NCBI RefSeq assembly: GCF_003945235.1 | Contig: NZ_RSDW01000001.1 | Span: 5,430,001 to 5,462,000 of the forward strand | Direction: 5' to 3' | Length of the DNA stretch: 32,000 nucleotides | Source: Edaphobacter aggregans | Lineage (GTDB): Bacteria > Acidobacteriota > Terriglobia > Terriglobales > Acidobacteriaceae | Part shown: piece after piece, positions 2,565 to 19,652 of the stretch | Numbering within the stretch: position 1 is the first letter of the stretch | How the letters are laid out: each line of letters opens with the position of its first letter | The notes under the pieces: generated by a model | Seen by the model: the letters and a program-made list of their open reading frames with translations, nothing else | Databases searched by the model: none | Told to the model about the DNA's origin: nothing | Position numbers and translations under genes: made by a program

Positions 2565-2607
2565 CCTTACACGCCGTCGTAAGGTAAATGTCAGAATCCC
2601 GTAAGTG
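2565..2607. promoter_or_regulatory. candidate response-regulator binding region in the divergent promoter
   Basis: Inverted repeat CCTTAC-N8-GTAAGG lies at 2565-2584. CGTAAG occurs as a direct repeat at 2578 and 2600, exactly 22 bp (two helical turns) apart. The region sits 40-80 nt upstream of the ATG at 2647, inside the 142-bp RR/efflux intergenic region. Confidence 0.3.
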
Positions 2608-2646
2608 TCTCTAGTGATTCAATTTGATTTGAGGGACACCGAATTT

Positions 2647-3441
2647 ATGATTCTGAAATCGTTCTTTGCCGTCGCGATCTTCACTGCAAATATGGCATTT
2701 TCACAGATCGCTACCGCGACCCCTGCCCAACCTCTTCCTCCAGCAACCACGATTCCGATCGTCTTCACAAAGAGCATCGATGCCAACCACGTTCACGCGG
2801 GCGATCCGATTATGGCTAAAACAACTCAGCTTGTCATACTCGCCGATGAGCATGTGCTGCCTGCAGGATCCCAGATTGTTGGCCACGTCATCGCGGGAAC
2901 TCCATTCACTTTCGATCCAACGCCCTATGCAAAACAGAGGCAATCTACGTTGGAACTCCAGTTCGATGCCATTGTGGATCACGGCAATAAGATTCCCTTG
3001 TCAGTCTATGTTCGTGCAATTGCTGATCCGCTGAGTTCATGGGATGCAACGAAGCCCAAATCAACGGATCTAGATTCGCTGAGCACCACGACACAAATAG
3101 GCGGCGATTTAGTGACGCCTTCGCAATCTGAGGTGCGATCACAGGAAGATGACGTCGTTGGCTACAAACGTCGGGGAGGAGTTTTCGCTCATCTGATCGC
3201 TGCGAAAGGAAATTCACCTGACGGATGCGATGCTTCCGACACGGAGCAGTCCATGGGAATCTTCTCCGCATCCGCTTGCGGACTGTACGGATTTCCAGAT
3301 ACCACTTTCGTTCGTAGCGGACGCAGCGGCGCTACGAGCACGATCCTTCTGGAATCGCGCCGGCGCCCAATGAAGATTTATTCAAAGAGTAATGCGCTGC
3401 TCGAGGTGACCGACGGCGATATGCATCTGGCAGTCCGATAA
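2647..3441 (+). CDS. hypothetical secreted protein (first gene of the efflux-side transcription unit)
   Basis: The ORF track gives 2605-3441. The in-frame ATG at 2647 yields MILKSFFAVAIFTANMAFSQIATA, a clean signal peptide. I recognise no family. His-containing patches are present (DANHVHAGD, GHVIAG, VDHGNK). Confidence 0.6.
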   Translation: MILKSFFAVAIFTANMAFSQIATATPAQPLPPATTIPIVFTKSIDANHVHAGDPIMAKTTQLVILADEHVLPAGSQIVGHVIAGTPFTFDPTPYAKQRQSTLELQFDAIVDHGNKIPLSVYVRAIADPLSSWDATKPKSTDLDSLSTTTQIGGDLVTPSQSEVRSQEDDVVGYKRRGGVFAHLIAAKGNSPDGCDASDTEQSMGIFSASACGLYGFPDTTFVRSGRSGATSTILLESRRRPMKIYSKSNALLEVTDGDMHLAVR

Positions 3442-3518: not shown

Positions 3519-3872
3519 ATGTTACAAGCAGGACAAGCAGTGAAGGTCACCGTTCATCTCAATCAGGACACCGGGGGTGCAACAGGATTTCTACTTGATG
3601 ACTTGTTCAAATTTCTGCGCGCAAACGGGGTTGAAGGTGCGACAGCATTTCGTGCCTATGCAGGGTTCGGCGCGCACCATCAGTTACACACAACCGGAGC
3701 GGGAGATGTCGCCGGTCTGCATCTGCCCGTAATTCTCTATTTCATCGAAACACGAGAAAAAGTTGACTCGATCCTGACCGAGCTCCTTTCACTTGTAACC
3801 GATGGTCTTGTAGAGGCGCAGCCCACAGAGATCTTAAAGACTGCGACGAGTGTGGGCAGGGTAATTGTTTGA
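3519..3872 (+). CDS. DUF190 (UPF0166) PII-like protein
   Basis: 117 aa. The pattern VKVTVHLNQD..., LFKFLRANGVEGATAFRAYAGFG...H...LPVILYFIETREKVDSILTEL matches the DUF190 layout (beta-alpha-beta, GATVxRGxxGFG, LPVxIExVD). GGAG lies 5 nt upstream of the ATG, and there is a 4-nt overlap with the next gene. Confidence 0.8.
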   Translation: MLQAGQAVKVTVHLNQDTGGATGFLLDDLFKFLRANGVEGATAFRAYAGFGAHHQLHTTGAGDVAGLHLPVILYFIETREKVDSILTELLSLVTDGLVEAQPTEILKTATSVGRVIV

Positions 3873-12256: not shown

Positions 12257-14221
12257 ATGGCTGTCGTACATGAAAGAAACACACCGGCTGATCTTAGCCA
12301 GATCGCTGAAGCTGGCATCCATCTGCCAGAGCCCACGGATACCCACGAAGAACAGGACGATGAGCACGGTTTTGAAATCGCAGATATTCTCCGTGTCATC
12401 TTTGTAGCGGTTGCCGCCGCAGCGGTGTGGTGCCATCTTTGGGAGCCATTTCATCGGGTCAGCGTAATTGGACTGGCGGCCACGCTGATCGGCGGCTACC
12501 CGATCTTCAAAGAGGCGTTTGAGAACATCATCGAGCGACGCATGACGATGGAGCTTTCCATGACCATTGCGCTCGTCTCCGCGCTGGCAATCGGAGAATT
12601 CTTTACCGCGCTGGTCATTACCGCCTTCGTGTTGGGAGCGGAAATCCTCGAAGGACTCACCGTAGGCCGCGGACGGCGCGCTATTCAGGACATGCTGGAT
12701 TTCCTTTCCCAAATTGCCAGCGTGCTGCGCAATGATCAAGTCATTGAAGTGGACACGAATACGATTCTTCCGGGCGAGATTGTCCTGATTCGGCCCGGCA
12801 GCCGTATTCCAGTTGATGGTCATGTCGTGAGCGGGCACTCCTTTGTCGAACAGGCCGCTATCACCGGCGAGCCGATGCCGAGCGAAAAGACAATAGGCAG
12901 CGAGGTCTACGCCGGCACCATCAATCAGGCGGGTACGCTCCAGGTTCGTGTCGATCGCCTGGGCAAAGAGACGACCTTCGGCAAGATCATTGAAGCGGTC
13001 GAGAATGCCGAGCACTCGCGCGCTCCCATTCAAAAGACGGCGGACCGGCTCGCCGGATATCTGGTCTATTTCGCACTCGGAGCAGCGGTGCTCACCTTCA
13101 TCCTCACCCACAACATCCGATCCACGATCTCCGTCATCATTGTGGCCGGGGCATGCGGTATCGCCGCGGGCACGCCGCTTGCCATCCTGGGCGCGATCGG
13201 GCGCGCTGCACGGCATGGCTCGATCATCAAGGGCGGGATTTATCTGGAAGCACTGGGGCAATTGGATACCGTCTTCCTCGATAAGACAGGCACTTTGACC
13301 TATGGAGTACCTTTGGTCACAAAAATCAGTACCGGGCCGGGAATTTCGGAGCGAACATTGCTCGAAGCAGCGGGCAGCGCTGAAAGAAACTCGGAGCATC
13401 CACTTGGCCGTGCCATTGTCCGGTTCGCCGAGCAGCAGAGGATTACCATCGTCGAGCCCGAGCACTTCGAGTATCGAATTGGCCGCGGCGTGCTGGCCTC
13501 GCTCGATGGCGAACAGGCAGTAGTTGGGAGTCGGGCCTTATTCAAGGAACTCGGAATTGCATTGCCTCAACACGCTGGAACCGCCGACGGAACGGAGATC
13601 CTCGTCGCGCGGGGAGGTCGCTACCATGGTTCTGTGCTGGTCACAGACCAACTGCGCCCCAGTGCCATTGCCGCGGTCAAGGCCCTCCAGGAAATGAAAA
13701 TCAAAGTCATCTTGTTGACAGGAGACACAAGAGGAGCAGCTGAAACCGTAGCCGATCATCTTGGCATCGTTCAGGTCTATCCCGAGTTGCTTCCTCAGCA
13801 GAAGGCAAGTTTCATCGCGGAGCAGGTGCGTAAAGGTCGCACCGTGGCGATGCTCGGAGACGGCATCAACGATGCGCCCGCACTCAGCGAAGCAACTGTC
13901 GGCGTCGCCATGAGCGCGGGTACAGACGTGGCCCGGGAGAGCGCGGATGTCGTGCTGATCGGCAACGATCTGACGAAGTTCGTCGAGACAGTTCAAGTCG
14001 CGCGAAACTGCCGCCGTATCATCCTGCAAAACTTCTACGGGACGCTCATTGTCGATACCGCAGGAATCGGTCTGGCTGCAGCCGGATTCCTCAATCCGCT
14101 TCTAGCGACGTTTATCCATGTTGCATCAGAACTGACATTCATCCTGAATTCGACGCGCCTACTGCCTCCGAGGGAGAAAGGCAAGGTTGCCGACAGTCAG
14201 CAGGAGCCGGCACATGTCTGA
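12257..14221 (+). CDS. heavy-metal translocating P1B-type ATPase with non-canonical TM metal site
   Basis: 654 aa. Motifs present: TGEP (ITGEPMP), DKTGTLT, SEHPLGRAI (HP), GDGINDAPAL and VLTGD-like LLTGD. There is no N-terminal CxxC domain; the acidic/His N-terminus reads THEEQDDEH. The TM4 position reads AGACGIAAGTP where CPC/SPC is expected. Confidence 0.95.
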   Translation: MAVVHERNTPADLSQIAEAGIHLPEPTDTHEEQDDEHGFEIADILRVIFVAVAAAAVWCHLWEPFHRVSVIGLAATLIGGYPIFKEAFENIIERRMTMELSMTIALVSALAIGEFFTALVITAFVLGAEILEGLTVGRGRRAIQDMLDFLSQIASVLRNDQVIEVDTNTILPGEIVLIRPGSRIPVDGHVVSGHSFVEQAAITGEPMPSEKTIGSEVYAGTINQAGTLQVRVDRLGKETTFGKIIEAVENAEHSRAPIQKTADRLAGYLVYFALGAAVLTFILTHNIRSTISVIIVAGACGIAAGTPLAILGAIGRAARHGSIIKGGIYLEALGQLDTVFLDKTGTLTYGVPLVTKISTGPGISERTLLEAAGSAERNSEHPLGRAIVRFAEQQRITIVEPEHFEYRIGRGVLASLDGEQAVVGSRALFKELGIALPQHAGTADGTEILVARGGRYHGSVLVTDQLRPSAIAAVKALQEMKIKVILLTGDTRGAAETVADHLGIVQVYPELLPQQKASFIAEQVRKGRTVAMLGDGINDAPALSEATVGVAMSAGTDVARESADVVLIGNDLTKFVETVQVARNCRRIILQNFYGTLIVDTAGIGLAAAGFLNPLLATFIHVASELTFILNSTRLLPPREKGKVADSQQEPAHV

Positions 14222-15014: not shown

Positions 15015-17717
15015 TTAGAAGTTTAAACTTACCTGTCCGGTGAAGGCCCGGGGCGAGACATAGTGGGTTCCCGAGAAGGTGGAGAGGAAGTTGTAGAGGG
15101 CGAATTTATTGGTGACGTTAATTGCGCTAAGACGAAGCCCGACTTTGTATCTGTCGCCATGAAAGAGATTGTCTTCTCCAAGTGCGATGTCAAAGAGGTT
15201 TCGTGGCGCGATTCGCTGCGGGTTGTGGTCATCATCCTCAGTGTTGGGTTTTGGGATATTGATGAGACTTGAGGTGAGACCGTTCGCATCGCACTGCGTA
15301 AAGCCTGAGGTGGGTGTGGCTCTTATGCCGTCGCAGGCCAGTCCTGCCTGGAACTGCTGGTCAGGCGTAAGGCCGCTCAGGTCGATTCCCGGCTGGCCAT
15401 TAGGCAGGGTGATGGAGGTGCTTCCGCAGCCCGTGTTGAGGCCGATAGTGTTGTAGCAGGGCACCGCGCCTGCGACGAGACCGTTGTCATAACGCCAGTT
15501 GAAGCCGAGCCAGGTGCTCTTGCGGAAGGGCAAGGTGTACTGCAGGTGCGTGGTCTGGTTGAATTTCTCGTCGTGATCGATGCGGAACGGCAAGCCGCCT
15601 GGAGTGCTGACGGTTGCGCCTACGCCGCCGATCTGCGGATTGAAGAAGCGCGCCGCTACTGACGACATTACGACGAAGGCGCTGATGCCATGCGTTTCGG
15701 GAACGCTCACACGGAGCGCATAGCCCGGGATCTTCGAGTTATGCCATTCGATGGGGAAGGTAATGGGGGTTGCGCCCAGCACGCTGAAGTCATAGGCGTT
15801 GTGCGTGTACTTCCAGATGTAGTCTCCGCTAAAGACGAGATGCCTGCCGAACGCCTGCTGCAGGCCGGCGTGGAACTCATTCCGGAAGCCCGGATTGAAC
15901 GGCGCCGGAGTGCACTGGCCGAGCGTTTCGAAGACAGCCTGCAGTACAGGATCAACACAGCCCTTAACCGAGAGGACCAGATTCTCATTGAAGGGGGTTT
16001 CCATGGTTCTTGCGTAGGAGAGGCGCAGTACCGTGTTGGTCTGCTTGATGGTGTAGGAGGTTCCGACACGGGGCTGAGCCTGACGCTCGACGGAGAGACC
16101 GTTGTAAAGATCACCGCGAATACCGACATTGAAGACCCAGTTGCCGGCGGTGATCTGATCCTGCACGTACATGGCTAGCTGCTTGACAGCTGTCTGGCCA
16201 TGCCAAGAATAGATGGTGCCACCGCGAGTGAGGTCAATCGGCAGAAGGATTGGATTGAAGCCTGCGTTCGGCTGGTAGCCGAGCGAGGAAGGGCACTTGC
16301 TAGGGTCGTTGAAGCCGATCACCGGATTGCCGTCCGCGTCCAGGCAGGGCGAGTTCAGTGTCGGATCGATGACGCCGATGTTGTTGTTCTCGCGAAGGTA
16401 GGTCTGTTCATACACAGCGCCAAACTTCATGTTGTGGATGCCCTTGATGTACGAGAGATCGGTGCGCAGGCCGGCGTTGGTCAACGAACGGGTCTGTGCG
16501 ACGGTCTCCTGCTGGATGGGGCCGAGATCGGCCAGTGGATTATTGCTGGGGAAGTAGTTGAAGGCGTCCTTGCGGACGAAGCCGCCGAAGTTGAAGATCG
16601 TATCCTTATTGATGATGCGCGTGTAAGTTGGTGCTATGTTGTAGGTCTCGATCTTGGAGCGTTGATCCGCAGGCCCAACCGGGTTGCCGAACTGATCTAA
16701 AACCGCGGATGTGTCGAAGGAATTCGGTGTCTGGAACCAGGAGCGGGTGTATTGCAGGTTGGTGTGGACGGAAGATTTATCCGAGAACTGGTAGTCCACA
16801 CGATCAAAGATGTTTTGTTGGTTGCCCCTACTGTGTATGACCGTGAACTCGGGGCCATCGAGAAAGCGGCCGGTATTCAAACCGCTGACCGCGAGGAAGT
16901 TACCCCAGTGGGTGTTGCCGTATGAGAGATCGCCTCCGCCGTTCGCGCTACCGAAGGTTCCGTAAGAACCGTAGATACTGCCGTGGGGTGTCGTAACACC
17001 CTGGCCGGAGCGGGTGGTGGCAACGATGACGAGGCTGGTTTTGTCTCCGAACTCAGCGGGTGGCGCTCCGCTGATGACCGTGAGCGACTGAACGGCTTCC
17101 ATGGGGAGTTGGTTGGAAAACACCTTGCTCTGCTGGTCCGTGATCGGCTGTCCGTCCACAGAGAAGGAGTTTTGGGCATGATCGCCGAGACCATGGAAGA
17201 GGCCGTTGGAGTCAGCGGCAACACCGGGAGAGGCCAGCGTCACGAGCGAACTGAGTGAAGACGACTGGCTCTCGAGGGGAAGGCGATCGATGATGTGACG
17301 GTCCACATCCGTATGGGCGGTCGGATCGTTCTCGATCAGGTCAGAGCCGGTTTCTACCGTGACGCTGGTGGAAGTCGTCTCGACACCGAGGCGAATTGAC
17401 ACCGTCACAGGCACGCCGGAGGCAATGTCTACCGTTTGAGTCGCGCTGCTGAAGCCGGTCACGTTAAAGACGAGGCGGTAAGGGTTATAGGGGACGTTAT
17501 AGAAGTGATACGTTCCGGCCGCATCCGTCTTCGTTGTGCGTTCGTATCCGCTGACGGGATTCAAAAGCTGAACGGTGACGCCAGGTACAACCGCTCCGCT
17601 GGGGTCTGTCACTGTGCCAGTCAAATTGCCTGAGGTGCCCTGGGCCAGTGCTCCAGTAACAAGAAGAGCCAGTGAGAAAAGAAGTAATGGAAGTCGAGTG
17701 AGAATAGGCCTGCACAT
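15015..17717 (-). CDS. TonB-dependent receptor with N-terminal carboxypeptidase-regulatory-like domain
   Basis: The track ORF extends to 17792, but the ATG at 17717 gives MCRPILTRLPLLLFSLALLVTGALAQ, a signal peptide. This is followed by GNLTGTVTDPSGAVVPGVTVQL...TDAAGTYHFYNVPYNPYRL (CarboxypepD_reg fold), a plug region (DRLPLE...GLGDHAQNSFSVDGQPITD), a long beta-barrel and a C-terminal aromatic ...GQVSLNF. Confidence 0.9.
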   Translation of the reverse strand: MCRPILTRLPLLLFSLALLVTGALAQGTSGNLTGTVTDPSGAVVPGVTVQLLNPVSGYERTTKTDAAGTYHFYNVPYNPYRLVFNVTGFSSATQTVDIASGVPVTVSIRLGVETTSTSVTVETGSDLIENDPTAHTDVDRHIIDRLPLESQSSSLSSLVTLASPGVAADSNGLFHGLGDHAQNSFSVDGQPITDQQSKVFSNQLPMEAVQSLTVISGAPPAEFGDKTSLVIVATTRSGQGVTTPHGSIYGSYGTFGSANGGGDLSYGNTHWGNFLAVSGLNTGRFLDGPEFTVIHSRGNQQNIFDRVDYQFSDKSSVHTNLQYTRSWFQTPNSFDTSAVLDQFGNPVGPADQRSKIETYNIAPTYTRIINKDTIFNFGGFVRKDAFNYFPSNNPLADLGPIQQETVAQTRSLTNAGLRTDLSYIKGIHNMKFGAVYEQTYLRENNNIGVIDPTLNSPCLDADGNPVIGFNDPSKCPSSLGYQPNAGFNPILLPIDLTRGGTIYSWHGQTAVKQLAMYVQDQITAGNWVFNVGIRGDLYNGLSVERQAQPRVGTSYTIKQTNTVLRLSYARTMETPFNENLVLSVKGCVDPVLQAVFETLGQCTPAPFNPGFRNEFHAGLQQAFGRHLVFSGDYIWKYTHNAYDFSVLGATPITFPIEWHNSKIPGYALRVSVPETHGISAFVVMSSVAARFFNPQIGGVGATVSTPGGLPFRIDHDEKFNQTTHLQYTLPFRKSTWLGFNWRYDNGLVAGAVPCYNTIGLNTGCGSTSITLPNGQPGIDLSGLTPDQQFQAGLACDGIRATPTSGFTQCDANGLTSSLINIPKPNTEDDDHNPQRIAPRNLFDIALGEDNLFHGDRYKVGLRLSAINVTNKFALYNFLSTFSGTHYVSPRAFTGQVSLNF

Positions 17718-17845
17718 AGGAATAACTCCTGTCGAGCTCGAATGAGCGTGCTGAAAAGCGCTGTCTCGTGCCAAAGGGGGGCACGAAATCACAGGGAGGA
17801 CAGGTCCTTTAAATTGTTCTGAAGAATCCTGACGCCTGCAGGAAA

Positions 17846-18202
17846 CTAAGCGCAGTTTTGGTCAGCAGGAGGTGGGCGGCTGGCCATCTCGAATCGCCAC
17901 CGGAAGATTCGCTCGGCATCGGCCGCCGCAGAATCCAGGGCGTGGACGAGCAGCATCGGGGTAGGAGCAGAGTGTAGTGACACAGGCAAGGCGGAGTGCA
18001 TCGCTACACAAAGCGGGCAATGGTCGTCCGAGGACGGACCGTTATTGCCAGAGTGCTGCTTTATAGGAGAAAACTGATCATGCGCGTGAAAGGCCTGGAT
18101 CGTACTCATCACGCAGATCATGACGAGGCAGGCAATCGCAAACAGGCGCAGCCATAGCGGCCACTTCCGTTCGTACCATCCGCCTTGGAACATGTTTTGC
18201 AT
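17846..18202 (-). CDS. DUF2946-like membrane-anchored Cys/His protein
   Basis: 118 aa. An N-terminal TM (LWLRLFAIACLVMICVMSTIQAF) is followed by HAHD and DDHCPLCVAMHSALP, then APTPMLL and a C-terminal SRPPP. The HCP(L/F)C...H...LP plus terminal RxPP pattern is what I recall for DUF2946 proteins encoded beside TonB-dependent copper receptors. It lies 128 nt upstream of the receptor gene on the same strand. Confidence 0.6.
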   Translation of the reverse strand: MQNMFQGGWYERKWPLWLRLFAIACLVMICVMSTIQAFHAHDQFSPIKQHSGNNGPSSDDHCPLCVAMHSALPVSLHSAPTPMLLVHALDSAAADAERIFRWRFEMASRPPPADQNCA

Positions 18203-18376
18203 TTATTACCGCTGTTGTCTCACGTTGTAGCATATTTTAGCGGCGATGACTATTCGGAGCACAGTCACCGCCTTTACGACGTCCAATTTCTAGCTCTCCT
18301 GTATTGCTGAGAGGTAGTAATGGGTTTGCAGCCGTACCATCCCAGAAACCGTCGCAACGGGAGTACCCGATGTTTG

Positions 18377-18404
18377 TCGCATATCATTCTGTTCGCATAT
18401 CATT
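18377..18404 (+). repeat. perfect tandem direct repeat TCGCATATCATT-N4-TCGCATATCATT
   Basis: Copies at 18377-18388 and 18393-18404 are identical 12-mers with a 16-bp period. The repeat ends 8 nt before the ATG at 18413. Confidence 0.5.
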
Positions 18405-18412
18405 GTGGATGA

Positions 18413-18757
18413 ATGGAGCGTGGCACTCTCACAATTCGAACCTCTGCTTGGCTGCTTTGCGCGGTTTTGGCGTGCCTGTCGCTCTTTCCTCCTCATTGCG
18501 ATCTCTGCGATGGTGTGCACTCAACGAGCATTGCTGCTTCCTCGCTGCAGTCCACCGCCGACCATCCTGCTCCGATCGCTCCGGATGACTGCAATGGTAT
18601 CTGCGCGTGCTGCGGGTTTCATTGGATGCCGATTCATACCGACCTGCTCATCTCGATGGGATTACTGGGTACATATCCGGCCGCTCCAACACCACTTCCT
18701 GTCCTGATTGCGCCGTCTTCGCAGTTTCGACCACCCCGAACCTCGGTTTCCTCGTAG
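18413..18757 (+). CDS. second DUF2946-like Cys/His-rich membrane-anchored small protein
   Basis: 114 aa. Of three overlapping + frames, this one has a TM/signal (SAWLLCAVLACLSLF) followed by PPHCDLCDGVHS, PDDCNGICACCGFHWMP, AAPTPLPVLI and a C-terminal FRPPR. These parallel the motifs of the 17846-18202 protein. Confidence 0.5.
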   Translation: MERGTLTIRTSAWLLCAVLACLSLFPPHCDLCDGVHSTSIAASSLQSTADHPAPIAPDDCNGICACCGFHWMPIHTDLLISMGLLGTYPAAPTPLPVLIAPSSQFRPPRTSVSS

Positions 18758-18815
18758 CTCGTCGGAGTCGCGCCTTTCCTAGGCGTGGACAACACAGCAC
18801 AAATGGAGCCTTGGT

Positions 18816-19652
18816 ATGCGAGTTCGTATGTTCACGCTCATAGGATCGTGCCTCTTTTCCTTGTCGGTTTTCCCTGCACACGGTCAGTCAGTAGAAGCTG
18901 AGATTCCGACCGCAAATCCCGGTCGTCCAACCGTCTCTACCCCCGCTACCCTGACGCCGATTGGCTATTTGCAGTTTGAAAATGGGACGCTCTACGCTTC
19001 GGACTCTCAAGAATTTTCAAGACGAGCCAGCATTAATCAAGTCACGAAGTTCACGGTGCTGCCTCGCCTTCAACTCCTTGCGCTCACAGAACCTTTCGTC
19101 CACAGCACCGGAAACGGTAACCCAGATAACCGTCCAGGTGAAGTGTTCGCGGGACTTCAGGGAGTGTTGCTCGAAGGCCAGGGGCGGATGCCTACAGTGT
19201 CTATGAGCTACATCCGGCGGCTCTACGAGAGCCCTGCGCCGGAGATCGATATCGGCACCTCTCGCCAGAGCGCTCTCATTCTCATCAGCGAGGATCTGCT
19301 CGGCTTTCACTTCGACGTAAACGGCATAGTGACGGAACAGGCAGATGGAACGATTCGGCGAGCCCAGATAGGCCAAACGCTTTCCATCTCGCATCCGACA
19401 GGGAAGTTCACTCTCTCTGGAGAGTTGTGGCACTTTTCGCAACCGCTCACAGCCGGGAACGCAGTCGGCTCGCTATTCGCCGTTGCCTATCCGGTTAAGC
19501 CTAATCTGGTAGTGGACGCCGGTCTCAATCATGGATGGACGAGTACGAGCACAAAATGGGAAGGTTTCGCTGGGTTCACCTATGTGCTGCCGCATCGATT
19601 CTGGAAGGCGAAGGGAAAGAGTCGGGATAATGATCGTTCCAGCTCGCAGTAG
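18816..19652 (+). CDS. outer-membrane beta-barrel protein, MetA-pathway/transporter (Phenol_MetA_deg-like) family
   Basis: 278 aa with signal peptide MFTLIGSCLFSLSVFPAHGQ. The N-terminal motif NPGRPTVSTPATLTPIGYLQFENG matches the (D)RPGxxxSxxxVxxGxxQxExG family signature. Alternating beta-strand pattern follows, ending FAGFTYVLPHRFW near the C-terminus. Confidence 0.7.
   Translation: MRVRMFTLIGSCLFSLSVFPAHGQSVEAEIPTANPGRPTVSTPATLTPIGYLQFENGTLYASDSQEFSRRASINQVTKFTVLPRLQLLALTEPFVHSTGNGNPDNRPGEVFAGLQGVLLEGQGRMPTVSMSYIRRLYESPAPEIDIGTSRQSALILISEDLLGFHFDVNGIVTEQADGTIRRAQIGQTLSISHPTGKFTLSGELWHFSQPLTAGNAVGSLFAVAYPVKPNLVVDAGLNHGWTSTSTKWEGFAGFTYVLPHRFWKAKGKSRDNDRSSSQ

What the first reader, a model, noticed from the sequence alone, without database searches (positions are those of the whole stretch)
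15015..19652. Mirror-image module: two DUF2946-like HCxLC proteins, each followed by an outer-membrane barrel
Two divergent transcription units start from a 210-bp intergenic region (18203-18412). Each begins with a ~115-aa membrane-anchored Cys/His protein followed by an outer-membrane barrel. On the minus strand this is a 900-aa TonB-dependent receptor; on the plus strand it is a 278-aa MetA-type barrel. The two small proteins share an ordered motif set.
- N-terminal TM in both.
- DDHCPLCVAMHSALP versus PPHCDLCDGVHS and PDDCNGICACCGFHWMP.
- APTPMLL versus AAPTPLPVL.
- C-terminal SRPP versus FRPP.
They therefore look like diverged paralogues. DUF2946 is an uncharacterised family that I recall as linked to TonB-dependent copper uptake. 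A duplicated, divergently arranged small-protein-plus-barrel design inside a metal cluster is not a described system. It suggests a thiol/His relay handing a metal (Cu?) between outer-membrane channels and the inner membrane.
Basis: partly seen in the sequence, partly recalled or inferred. Interest (0 to 1): 0.7.

Follow-up and report, generated by a model that had tools for sequence, protein, structure and literature searches.

The report
Two copper-sensing leader peptides, back-to-back
The two small Cys/His proteins are most likely not metal-relay proteins but short regulatory leader peptides of an already described kind (CruR/CutF), which sense copper while being made and stall the ribosome to switch the outer-membrane gene behind them on or off.

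Summary
All four ORFs are real and conserved. sp1 (17846-18202, minus strand) is a divergent DUF2946/CruR-type leader. It has one N-terminal export segment, an invariant HCPLC and an invariant C-terminal RPPP. The Cys-to-Arg spacing is 47 residues in 50 of 51 relatives. A TonB-dependent receptor gene follows in 53 of 54 genomes.

sp2 (18413-18757, plus strand) belongs to a small separate family that Pfam DUF2946 does not detect. It has the CutF design: export segment, CxxxC cluster, invariant PPR exactly 46 residues later, and a short spacer whose fold can hide the downstream ribosome-binding site.

The 278-aa protein is a roughly 12-stranded outer-membrane barrel. Its closest solved folds are FapF and NanC, and it has no MetA-family HMM hit.

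The claim that sp1 and sp2 are paralogues is not statistically supported. The mirror arrangement is rare: the window's own species, E. flagellatus, and a rearranged version in one MAG.

DUF2946 is no longer uncharacterised. CruR (2022) and CutF (2023, 2025) are copper-responsive arrest-peptide upstream ORFs. The best reading is two independent leader-peptide switches. What is new is an acidobacterial RPPP clade and a second CutF-like family with a new target.

The parts
17846..18202 (-). sp1: 118-aa leader ORF of the CruR/DUF2946 type
   Evidence: There are 179 homologues. 25 of 26 relatives hit PF11162 at E<=1, with a best E-value of 1.2e-5. Invariant positions are H39, H41, D60-H-C-P-x-C65 and R109-P-P-P.
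18107..18151 (-). sp1 export signal or anchor (residues 18-32, LRLFAIACLVMICVM)
   Evidence: This is the only hydrophobic segment, with a Kyte-Doolittle 15-residue maximum of 2.63.
18008..18022 (-). sp1 HCPLC motif (residues 61-65), the putative Cu-binding CxxC
   Evidence: It is invariant in 50 distinct genes while the codons vary synonymously.
17867..17878 (-). sp1 RPPP (residues 109-112), an RxPP-class arrest motif with 6 codons before the stop
   Evidence: C62 to R109 is 47 residues in 50 of 51 loci. The variants RGPP (L033, L034) and RAPP (L057) occur at the same place. RxPP with x = G, A, S or P is arrest-inducing (PMC12992588).
17718..17845 (-). 128-nt sp1-receptor spacer. It holds conserved islands (CCTGCAGG 17835-17842, CCCTGTG 17790-17796, a hairpin at 17767-17785) and the receptor SD GACAGGAG at 17726-17733
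   Evidence: Spacer length is mostly 110-140 nt across loci. The islands appear in alignment A4. The hairpin is in the MFE fold, z = -2.0. No consensus fold was found and no anti-SD excess over shuffles. The spacers have more C than G, 1503 vs 1100.
15015..17717 (-). 900-aa TonB-dependent-receptor-like outer-membrane protein with an N-terminal CarboxypepD_reg domain
   Evidence: CarboxypepD_reg E=1e-17 and Plug 25.0 bits vs a 23.9 cut-off. Plug is found in 13 of 13 relatives. The profile hits YncD and PqqU at E about 2e-3. The gene follows an sp1 homologue in 53 of 54 loci.
18203..18412 (.). 210-bp divergent promoter region
   Evidence: There is one weak sigma-70-like match at 18374-18403 on the plus strand, no more than chance gives. 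No inverted repeats were found.
18413..18757 (+). sp2: 114-aa leader ORF with CutF-like design, from a small family outside Pfam DUF2946
   Evidence: 13 homologues by word search and 104 by profile search. Nearly invariant positions are C29, C32, C60, C64, C66, C67, P107, P108 and R109. N-terminal extensions in homologues are not conserved, so the ATG at 18413 is the start.
18443..18487 (+). sp2 export signal (residues 11-25, SAWLLCAVLACLSLF)
   Evidence: This is the only hydrophobic segment, with a Kyte-Doolittle maximum of 2.26. AF2 predicts a helix at residues 3-24 with high pLDDT.
18494..18508 (+). sp2 HCDLC (residues 28-32), the first Cys pair
   Evidence: C29 and C32 are nearly invariant. 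The distance to the Pro motif varies between 75 and 77 residues.
18590..18613 (+). sp2 CNGICACC (residues 60-67), the CxxxCxCC cluster at the CutF-like distance
   Evidence: The offset from C60 to the residue before PPR is 46 in 14 of 14 proteins and in 12 of 12 DNA loci.
18728..18739 (+). sp2 RPPR (residues 106-109). PPR is invariant and 5 codons precede the stop
   Evidence: It resembles the CutF C-terminus GPPPRL.
18745..18810 (+). Candidate RBS-shielding stem-loop. GGTTTCC (18745-18751) pairs with the barrel SD GGAGCC (18805-18810), enclosing a hairpin at 18767-18790
   Evidence: MFE fold. A 7-locus subclade gives an equivalent consensus helix with 3 of 11 compensatory pairs. The window alone is not significant (z = -0.3; duplex p = 0.51).
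18816..19652 (+). 278-aa outer-membrane beta-barrel of an unannotated family: signal peptide plus roughly 12 strands
   Evidence: 3,665 homologues with no Pfam annotation. AF2 gives pLDDT 77 and 12-13 strands. Foldseek's best matches are FapF (E=1e-7, TM 0.58-0.62) and NanC.

Best explanation
The locus holds two independent, divergently transcribed regulatory units. Each is headed by a metal-sensing (most likely copper-sensing) leader ORF whose nascent peptide controls the outer-membrane gene behind it by programmed ribosome arrest.

Unit 1 (sp1, then the TonB-dependent receptor) is an acidobacterial version of the CruR-BfrG system. The nascent chain carries an HCPLC site 47 residues upstream of an RPPP (RxPP-class) arrest motif. 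Whether the ribosome stays stalled there depends on metal binding, and that decides whether the receptor gene, 128 nt downstream, is expressed. By analogy with CruR this would work through Rho access or mRNA structure, and copper would turn the receptor off.

Unit 2 (sp2, then the 278-aa barrel) follows the CutF design. The nascent chain is exported, and a CxxxCxCC cluster lies 46 residues upstream of an invariant PPR. A ribosome paused there would sit on the sequence that otherwise pairs with the barrel gene's Shine-Dalgarno, so stalling would open the ribosome-binding site.

Shown here: coding conservation, the motifs, the fixed spacings, selection at the peptide level, gene order, and the spacer features.

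Inferred by analogy only: the arrest itself, the identity of the metal, the direction of each switch (on or off), and whether Rho or RBS shielding is used.
For: sp1 family:
- Invariant HCPxC and xRPPP, with C-to-R = 47 residues in 50 of 51 genes down to about 36% identity.
- RGPP and the canonical RAPP occur at the same position in relatives.
- Arg is encoded by 6 different codons and the three Pro positions by 4, 4 and 3, so selection is on the peptide.
- DUF2946 is hit by 25 of 26 relatives, best E=1.2e-5.
- The receptor gene is directly downstream in 53 of 54 loci, with spacers mostly 110-140 nt and conserved islands.

sp2 family:
- Only the Cys residues and PPR are nearly invariant across 53 sequences down to about 20% identity.
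- The CxxxC-to-xPPR offset is 46 in 14 of 14 proteins and 12 of 12 loci.
- The ORF always lies 41-87 nt upstream of an exported protein gene.
- The consensus fold of the spacer pairs the SD with the bases just 3' of the stop, with 3 of 11 compensatory pairs. MFE folds do the same in most loci.
- sp2 is predicted to be unstructured after its signal helix.

Literature:
- CruR has CXXC, then 45 residues, then RAPP. It heads TBDT operons across a 162-nt spacer (PMC9426467).
- CutF has a Sec signal, CxxxC, about 45 residues, then GPPPRL, with a stem-loop shielding the cutO RBS (PMC9973294 and bioRxiv 10.1101/2025.02.05.636593).
- RxPP with x = G, A, S or P is arrest-inducing, and CruR arrests in vitro (PMC12992588).
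- Both ORFs meet the rule-based definition of a CutF-like protein.
Against: - No experiment exists on these sequences.
- sp1 itself is below the Pfam threshold (14.2 vs 23.7 bits).
- sp2 has no detectable homology to DUF2946: 1 of 53 members at E=0.048, and hhalign 13.7%.
- sp1 has 43 intervening residues between CxxC and R against 45 in CruR. That is at the edge of the reported tolerance of one or two residues.
- sp2's motif is PPR rather than RxPP or PPP, and its stalling strength is unknown.
- For the sp1 spacer I found no consensus structure and no anti-SD signal above shuffles.
- For the sp2 spacer the window's own fold is not significant (z = -0.3; duplex p = 0.51), and the combined test over seven lineages is weak (p = 0.04).
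- Most barrel genes (57 of 65) have no such leader, so the leader is not needed for the barrel's function.
Confidence: 0.62

Rival explanations
1. sp1 and sp2 are stable, membrane-anchored Cys/His metallochaperones that pass copper or another metal between the outer-membrane channels and the inner membrane.
For: Both have a single N-terminal hydrophobic segment and conserved Cys/His residues. The genes sit next to outer-membrane proteins inside a metal cluster.
Against: - A chaperone has no reason to keep an exact 46-47-residue distance between its Cys site and a C-terminal RxPP or PPR, nor a short fixed tail.
- sp2 is predicted to be unfolded beyond its signal helix.
- The characterised relatives CruR and CutF are undetectable or rapidly degraded and act only in cis.
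- sp2-type ORFs precede two unrelated downstream protein families.
Confidence: 0.12
2. Only sp1 is a regulatory leader. sp2 is a small secreted Cys-rich protein that works together with the barrel, for example as a periplasmic metal-binding partner or plug, and its C-terminal PPR is structural.
For: sp2 has no significant similarity to DUF2946. It has six conserved Cys, more than a sensor needs. The RBS-shielding fold is not significant in the window itself.
Against: The same ORF family sits upstream of a different 171-207-aa protein family. The offset of 46 is invariant, PPR lies 1-5 codons from the stop, and the spacer helix shows covariation. 57 of 65 barrel genes lack it.
Confidence: 0.15
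3. sp2 is a precursor of a ribosomally made, Cys-modified peptide such as a chalkophore-like metal binder, which is exported through the barrel.
For: It has a Cys-rich core (CNGICACCGF) after a leader-like N-terminus. The barrel's closest fold is FapF, a peptide-secretion barrel.
Against: No modification enzymes are adjacent in the window or in L001-L003, L060 or L063-L076. The N-terminus is a classical hydrophobic export segment. The conserved C-terminal PPR and its fixed spacing are unexplained by this model.
Confidence: 0.05
4. One or both small ORFs are chance reading frames in a long divergent promoter region.
For: Gene callers often miss them. For example, neither was called in L060.
Against: There are hundreds of homologues with motif-specific conservation and synonymous codon variation at invariant residues.
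Confidence: 0.01

Closest known systems
CruR (Bordetella pertussis Bp2923; Pfam DUF2946, PF11162) heading cruR-bfrG-bp2921
   Same: sp1 is a small exported ORF in first position. It has a CxxC, a C-terminal Arg-x-Pro-Pro arrest-type motif a few residues before the stop, and a fixed spacing between the two. A long spacer (128 nt here, 162 nt in CruR) separates it from a TonB-dependent receptor gene directly downstream.
   Different: The motif is RPPP instead of RAPP. There are 43 rather than 45 intervening residues and 6 rather than 3 residues after the motif. An extra invariant HxH is present. The host is Acidobacteriaceae rather than Proteobacteria, and the receptor is of the CarboxypepD_reg-plus-Plug type. 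The window protein itself scores below the Pfam threshold. Rho dependence and the response to copper are untested.
CutF (Rhodobacter capsulatus cutFOG) and the 'CutF-like' proteins of Ozturk et al. 2023
   Same: sp2 has an N-terminal export signal and a CxxxC about 45 residues upstream of a C-terminal Pro motif followed by Arg (GPPPRL in CutF, FRPPR here). The spacer is short (58 nt) and its fold can cover the downstream Shine-Dalgarno. sp2 meets all the rule-based CutF-like filters.
   Different: No detectable sequence homology to DUF2946. There is an additional N-proximal HCxLC pair and a CxCC extension. The motif is PPR, not PPP. The downstream gene is an unannotated outer-membrane barrel (or, in relatives, a 171-207-aa exported protein) rather than a multicopper oxidase, RND component or TonB-like protein.
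RAPP/RGPP arrest peptides (ApdA, ApdP, SecM-like; Fujiwara/Chiba, EMBO J 2025)
   Same: A C-terminal RxPP in a small secreted protein encoded upstream of a regulated gene, with an irreplaceable Arg. In the sp1 family that Arg is invariant.
   Different: Those peptides monitor protein export, whereas this one would monitor a metal through Cys/His ligands.
FapF and NanC 12-stranded outer-membrane barrels
   Same: The predicted fold of the 278-aa protein matches them (Foldseek E=1e-7, TM about 0.6).
   Different: Sequence identity is only 9-14%. There is no family HMM hit and no amyloid (fap) genes nearby, so this is a resemblance of fold only.

Membership tests
DUF2946 / CruR (PF11162) | Match to the family HMM above the gathering score | tested here: inconclusive
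   sp1 scores 14.2 bits vs 23.7. However, 25 of 26 close relatives hit at E<=1 (best 1.2e-5), two relatives carry a precomputed PF11162 hit, and one is named 'DUF2946 family protein' by UniRef. For sp2 there is no hit and only 1 of 53 family members at E=0.048.
DUF2946 / CruR (PF11162) | N-terminal export signal or Nin-Cout anchor | tested here: met
   Each protein has a single N-terminal hydrophobic segment preceded by basic residues. This rests on hydropathy only, because no signal-peptide predictor was available.
DUF2946 / CruR (PF11162) | Conserved CXXC motif | tested here: met
   In sp1, C62-P-L-C65 is invariant in 50 genes. In sp2, C29xxC32 is nearly invariant.
DUF2946 / CruR (PF11162) | C-terminal RAPP arrest motif a few residues before the stop | tested here: met
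   For sp1, RPPP belongs to the RxPP class, with 6 residues before the stop. RGPP and RAPP occur in clade members, and RxPP (x = G, A, S, P) is arrest-inducing per PMC12992588. For sp2 this feature is NOT met: its motif is xPPR, with the preceding residue variable among R, H, Q, L and E.
DUF2946 / CruR (PF11162) | CXXC-RAPP spacing of 45 intervening residues, conserved to within 1-2 | tested here: inconclusive
   sp1 has 43 intervening residues (C65 to R109), at the edge of the reported range. 50 of 51 genes in its clade share this spacing.
DUF2946 / CruR (PF11162) | First gene of a unit containing copper-related genes or a TBDT, with a long spacer | tested here: met
   A receptor gene is directly downstream in 53 of 54 loci. 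Spacers are mostly 110-140 nt.
DUF2946 / CruR (PF11162) | Copper-dependent ribosome arrest controlling downstream expression | not testable with these tools
   This needs reporter fusions, toeprinting and growth with and without copper.
CutF-like proteins (rule set of Ozturk et al. 2023) | Fewer than 150 aa, a PP within the last 15 residues, an N-terminal signal, and a same-strand downstream gene within 1 kb | tested here: met
   sp1 is 118 aa with PPP 6 residues from the end and a 128-nt spacer. sp2 is 114 aa with PP 6 residues from the end and a 58-nt spacer.
CutF-like proteins (rule set of Ozturk et al. 2023) | CxxxC metal site about 45 residues upstream of the Pro motif | tested here: met
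   In sp2 the offset from C60xxxC64 to the residue before PPR is 46, in 14 of 14 proteins and 12 of 12 loci.
CutF-like proteins (rule set of Ozturk et al. 2023) | Stem-loop in the spacer that shields the downstream Shine-Dalgarno | tested here: inconclusive
   MFE folds pair the SD with bases 8-14 nt 3' of PPR. A subclade consensus helix has 3 of 11 compensatory pairs. The window alone is not significant, and the combined duplex test gives p = 0.04.
TonB-dependent receptor | Plug domain followed by a large C-terminal beta-barrel | tested here: met
   Plug scores 25.0 bits vs 23.9 and is found in 13 of 13 relatives. The profile hits the plug regions of YncD and PqqU. The barrel HMM (OMP_b-brl_4) is found in only 1 of 13, and the protein ends in Phe. 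The barrel part is inferred from length, and no structure was predicted.
Phenol_MetA_deg-type barrel (PF13557) | Match to the family HMM | tested here: not met
   No Pfam hit at E<=1 for the 278-aa protein or for any of its 32 relatives. The predicted fold is a roughly 12-stranded barrel closest to FapF and NanC.

The most novel reading that the evidence does not exclude
The sp2 family is an independently evolved (or unrecognisably diverged) class of metal-sensing arrest peptide with a double Cys site and a PPR stall motif. It controls a previously unannotated family of 12-stranded outer-membrane barrels. Placed back-to-back with a CruR-type leader, it would form a push-pull switch that shuts the copper-uptake receptor and opens a second outer-membrane channel as copper rises.
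Probability: 0.2. Interest if true: 0.6.

Novelty: new variant of a known kind. Interest (0 to 1): 0.4.

Why it matters
If confirmed, the finding would matter in three ways.

- It would extend copper-responsive arrest-peptide regulation, so far studied only in two Proteobacteria, to soil Acidobacteriota. It would also show that RPPP serves there in place of RAPP.
- It would add a second leader family that current Pfam models miss, which suggests such leaders are under-annotated. Gene callers skipped both of them in E. flagellatus.
- It would give a first functional handle, metal-regulated expression, on a family of more than 3,000 outer-membrane barrels that has no annotation.

It does not reveal a new kind of metal-relay machinery.

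Tried and rejected
- **Anti-SD switch in the sp1-receptor spacer.** The conserved CCTGTC is complementary to the GACAGG of the SD. However, the complementarity is no better than in shuffles in 39 of 39 spacers, and the predicted SD partner is inconsistent. RNAalifold gave no consensus.
- **Direct paralogy of sp1 and sp2.** BLASTP and two profile-profile comparisons were not significant.
- **MetA family for the barrel.** There is no HMM hit in 32 members. A literature search linking FapF to the MetA family found nothing.
- **Single-sequence PDB search with the receptor.** No hits. Only the profile found TBDT plug regions.
- **Operator palindromes in the 210-bp divergent region.** None. The promoter scan was no better than chance.
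- **A third leader ORF upstream of the RND operon, or elsewhere in the window.** None with a Cys motif and Pro tail.
- **The two 278-aa proteins of the window as paralogues.** They are unrelated.
- **My interim conclusion that the mirror layout is unique to this species.** This was corrected when L060 showed the same layout with leaders too diverged for tblastn to detect.

Full report
**What is there.**
- sp1 is at 17846-18202 on the minus strand (118 aa).
- A long ORF at 15015-17792 follows on the same strand. Its real start is almost certainly ATG 17717, giving 900 aa. It has an AGGAG 8 nt upstream, and homologues align from this Met.
- sp2 is at 18413-18757 on the plus strand (114 aa).
- A 278-aa ORF is at 18816-19652.
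- The two small ORFs start 210 bp apart, back-to-back.
- The wider window is a metal cluster. It holds a heavy-metal-type two-component system, a CzcCBA-like RND pump, an MgtC/DUF4010 protein and a P1B heavy-metal ATPase that passes the NCBIfam Cu and Cd subfamily cut-offs.

**Are the small ORFs genes?**
Yes.
- sp1 has 179 homologues in Edaphobacter, Granulicella, Terriglobus and related Acidobacteriaceae.
- sp2 has 13 homologues by word search and 104 by an exhaustive profile search of 1.84 billion representatives.
- In sp2's homologues the called N-terminal extensions are not conserved, so the window's ATG is the true start.
- Invariant residues are encoded by many synonymous codons. Across 50 distinct sp1-family genes, the Arg of RPPP uses six codons and the three Pro positions use four, four and three codons. 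Selection therefore acts on the peptide, not on the RNA.

**Are they paralogues, and are they DUF2946?**
- sp1 itself is below the Pfam threshold for DUF2946 (14.2 vs 23.7 bits).
- However, 25 of 26 relatives hit the model (best E=1.2e-5). Some carry a precomputed PF11162 hit or a UniRef 'DUF2946 family protein' name. One relative (L057) has the canonical RAPP.
- I therefore accept sp1 as a divergent DUF2946 clade.
- sp2 does not hit DUF2946, and only 1 of 53 family members does, at E=0.048.
- The two families are not significantly related. BLASTP gives E=0.057 over 11 residues, and hhalign gives 0.7% and 13.7% probability.
- The shared 'APTP' lies in variable sequence.
- The better of the two weak profile alignments puts sp1's DDHCPLC on sp2's second Cys cluster (PDDCNGIC).

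**The decisive anatomy.**
- In the sp1 family, the first Cys of HCPxC lies exactly 47 residues before the Arg of RPPP in 50 of 51 genes, down to about 36% identity. The motif is followed by 5-6 residues and a stop in most.
- In the sp2 family, the only nearly invariant positions across 53 sequences, down to about 20% identity, are C29, C32, C60, C64, C66, C67 and P107-P108-R109.
- The CxxxC cluster lies exactly 46 residues before the residue preceding PPR, in 14 of 14 proteins and 12 of 12 DNA loci. The HCxLC distance varies between 75 and 77.
- Each protein has one hydrophobic segment, at the N-terminus.
- sp2 is predicted to be unstructured beyond that helix, with pLDDT below 50 for residues 36-96. 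The alignment behind this model is shallow.

**What this matches.**
DUF2946 is no longer uncharacterised.
- *CruR.* Bordetella CruR is an upstream ORF with a CXXC, 45 intervening residues and a C-terminal RAPP arrest motif. It sits 162 nt upstream of the TonB-dependent transporter gene bfrG. Copper sensed by the nascent chain relieves the arrest and lets Rho terminate transcription (PMC9426467).
- *CutF.* Rhodobacter CutF has a Sec signal, a CxxxC, about 45 residues and a C-terminal GPPPRL. Copper prolongs stalling, which melts a stem-loop over the cutO ribosome-binding site (PMC9973294 and bioRxiv 10.1101/2025.02.05.636593).
- *RxPP motifs.* RxPP with x = Gly, Ala, Ser or Pro induces arrest, and the Arg is irreplaceable. 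CruR arrests in vitro at RAPP (PMC12992588).
- sp1 therefore matches the CruR paradigm feature by feature, and sp2 matches the CutF design. Both satisfy the published rule set for 'CutF-like' proteins.

**Gene order in other genomes.**
- Across 54 reference-genome loci encoding sp1 relatives, a homologue of the receptor follows directly in 53. The exception ends at a contig edge. Spacers are mostly 110-140 nt.
- sp2-type ORFs are always 41-87 nt upstream of an exported protein gene. The target is either the 278-aa barrel family (8 of 65 barrel loci with enough upstream sequence) or an unrelated 171-207-aa family.
- The mirror layout is not a conserved module. The barrel lies within 7 kb of sp1 in only 2 of 54 loci: L006, which is essentially the window's own species, and L007, where the units are convergent and about 7 kb apart.
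- The layout does recur once more, in E. flagellatus (L060), with both leaders too diverged for tblastn and not called by gene finders.
- In L108, L116 and L121 the receptor and barrel lie in tandem, and in L108 and L121 the receptor is headed by a single RPPP leader.
- Receptor and barrel are thus loosely but repeatedly linked, while their leaders are independent.

**The downstream proteins.**
- The receptor has a CarboxypepD_reg domain and a Plug domain, the latter in 13 of 13 relatives. Its profile finds the plug regions of YncD and PqqU.
- The 278-aa protein belongs to a family of 3,665 proteins with no Pfam hit.
- AlphaFold predicts a signal peptide plus 12-13 strands at pLDDT 77. Foldseek places it nearest to the 12-stranded barrels FapF and NanC.
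- 'MetA-type' is not supported by any HMM.

**Spacer RNA.**
- *Unit 2.* MFE folds in most loci pair the barrel's Shine-Dalgarno with bases 8-14 nt downstream of the PPR codons, around a conserved hairpin. A ribosome paused at PPR would cover that partner. RNAalifold on the seven sequences that align recovers both helices, with 3 of 11 compensatory pairs.
- The window's own fold is not significant (z = -0.3). A shuffle-controlled duplex test is weak: p = 0.51 for the window and p = 0.04 combined over seven lineages.
- *Unit 1.* The spacer has conserved islands and a hairpin. I found no consensus structure and no anti-SD signal above shuffles. It has more C than G (1503 vs 1100), which is compatible with a Rho-utilisation site but is no proof of one.
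- Which sub-mechanism each unit uses remains open.

**Verdict.**
These are most likely two independent metal-sensing leader-peptide switches of a described kind, not a thiol/His relay and not a duplicated module.

What is new is modest:
- an acidobacterial RPPP clade of CruR-type leaders;
- a second, Pfam-invisible leader family with a double Cys site and PPR;
- a new regulated target family of outer-membrane barrels.

The identity of the metal, the direction of each switch and the arrest itself are all inferred by analogy and need experiments.

Noticed in passing
L001:8556-9113, L002:8384-8899, L003:8565-9188: sp2 homologues in other genomes precede a different conserved family of exported proteins, 171-207 aa long (GAATxW..GGAATFAPN..EAGVSPF), with no Pfam hit. 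Its signal peptide closely resembles that of the window's barrel, although the mature parts are unrelated.
   Followed up: partly
L003:7531-8510 (also L004, L005): Here the sp2 homologue is immediately preceded by a DtxR/MntR-type repressor gene (Fe_dep_repress) and a divergent CarboxypepD_reg receptor. A CsoR-like repressor and a P-type ATPase lie about 6 kb downstream. This suggests a link to other metal regulators.
   Followed up: no
L060:4081-4398 (-) and L060:4593-4931 (+): In E. flagellatus both leader ORFs lie in a 962-nt stretch where the source's gene calls list nothing. The sp2-like ORF there ends EPPVEPPRI: the residue before PPR is Glu rather than Arg, and only one residue follows before the stop.
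   Followed up: partly
window 17846-17848 and alignment A4: The stop codon of sp1-family genes is TAG in almost all of the 29 aligned loci (exceptions include L037, TAA), and in most it is followed within about 10 nt by a conserved GCAGG-containing element (consensus CCTGCAGG). The reason is unknown.
   Followed up: partly
window 2605-3441 (+): A 278-aa protein that looks exported lies between the two-component system and the RND operon. It has no Pfam or NCBIfam hit. It is the same length as the barrel at 18816-19652 but is unrelated to it (BLASTP E=0.09).
   Followed up: partly
window 3519-3872 (+): A 117-aa ORF ends just inside the start of the RND outer-membrane factor gene (4-nt overlap). 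It has no Cys motif and no Pro tail, so it is not a CutF/CzcI-type leader.
   Followed up: no
window 12257-14221 (+): The P1B heavy-metal ATPase has no N-terminal HMA-domain hit. It has a His/Asp/Glu-rich N-terminus instead and scores above the cut-off for both the Cu and Cd subfamily models, so its metal specificity is unclear.
   Followed up: no
L108:360-1061, L121:449-847, L116:1-2842: In these metagenome loci a single RPPP-tailed leader (…SWHYSRPPPLA) heads the receptor gene (L108, L121). The barrel follows on the same strand without a leader of its own, and in L116 it is only 68 nt after the receptor gene.
   Followed up: partly
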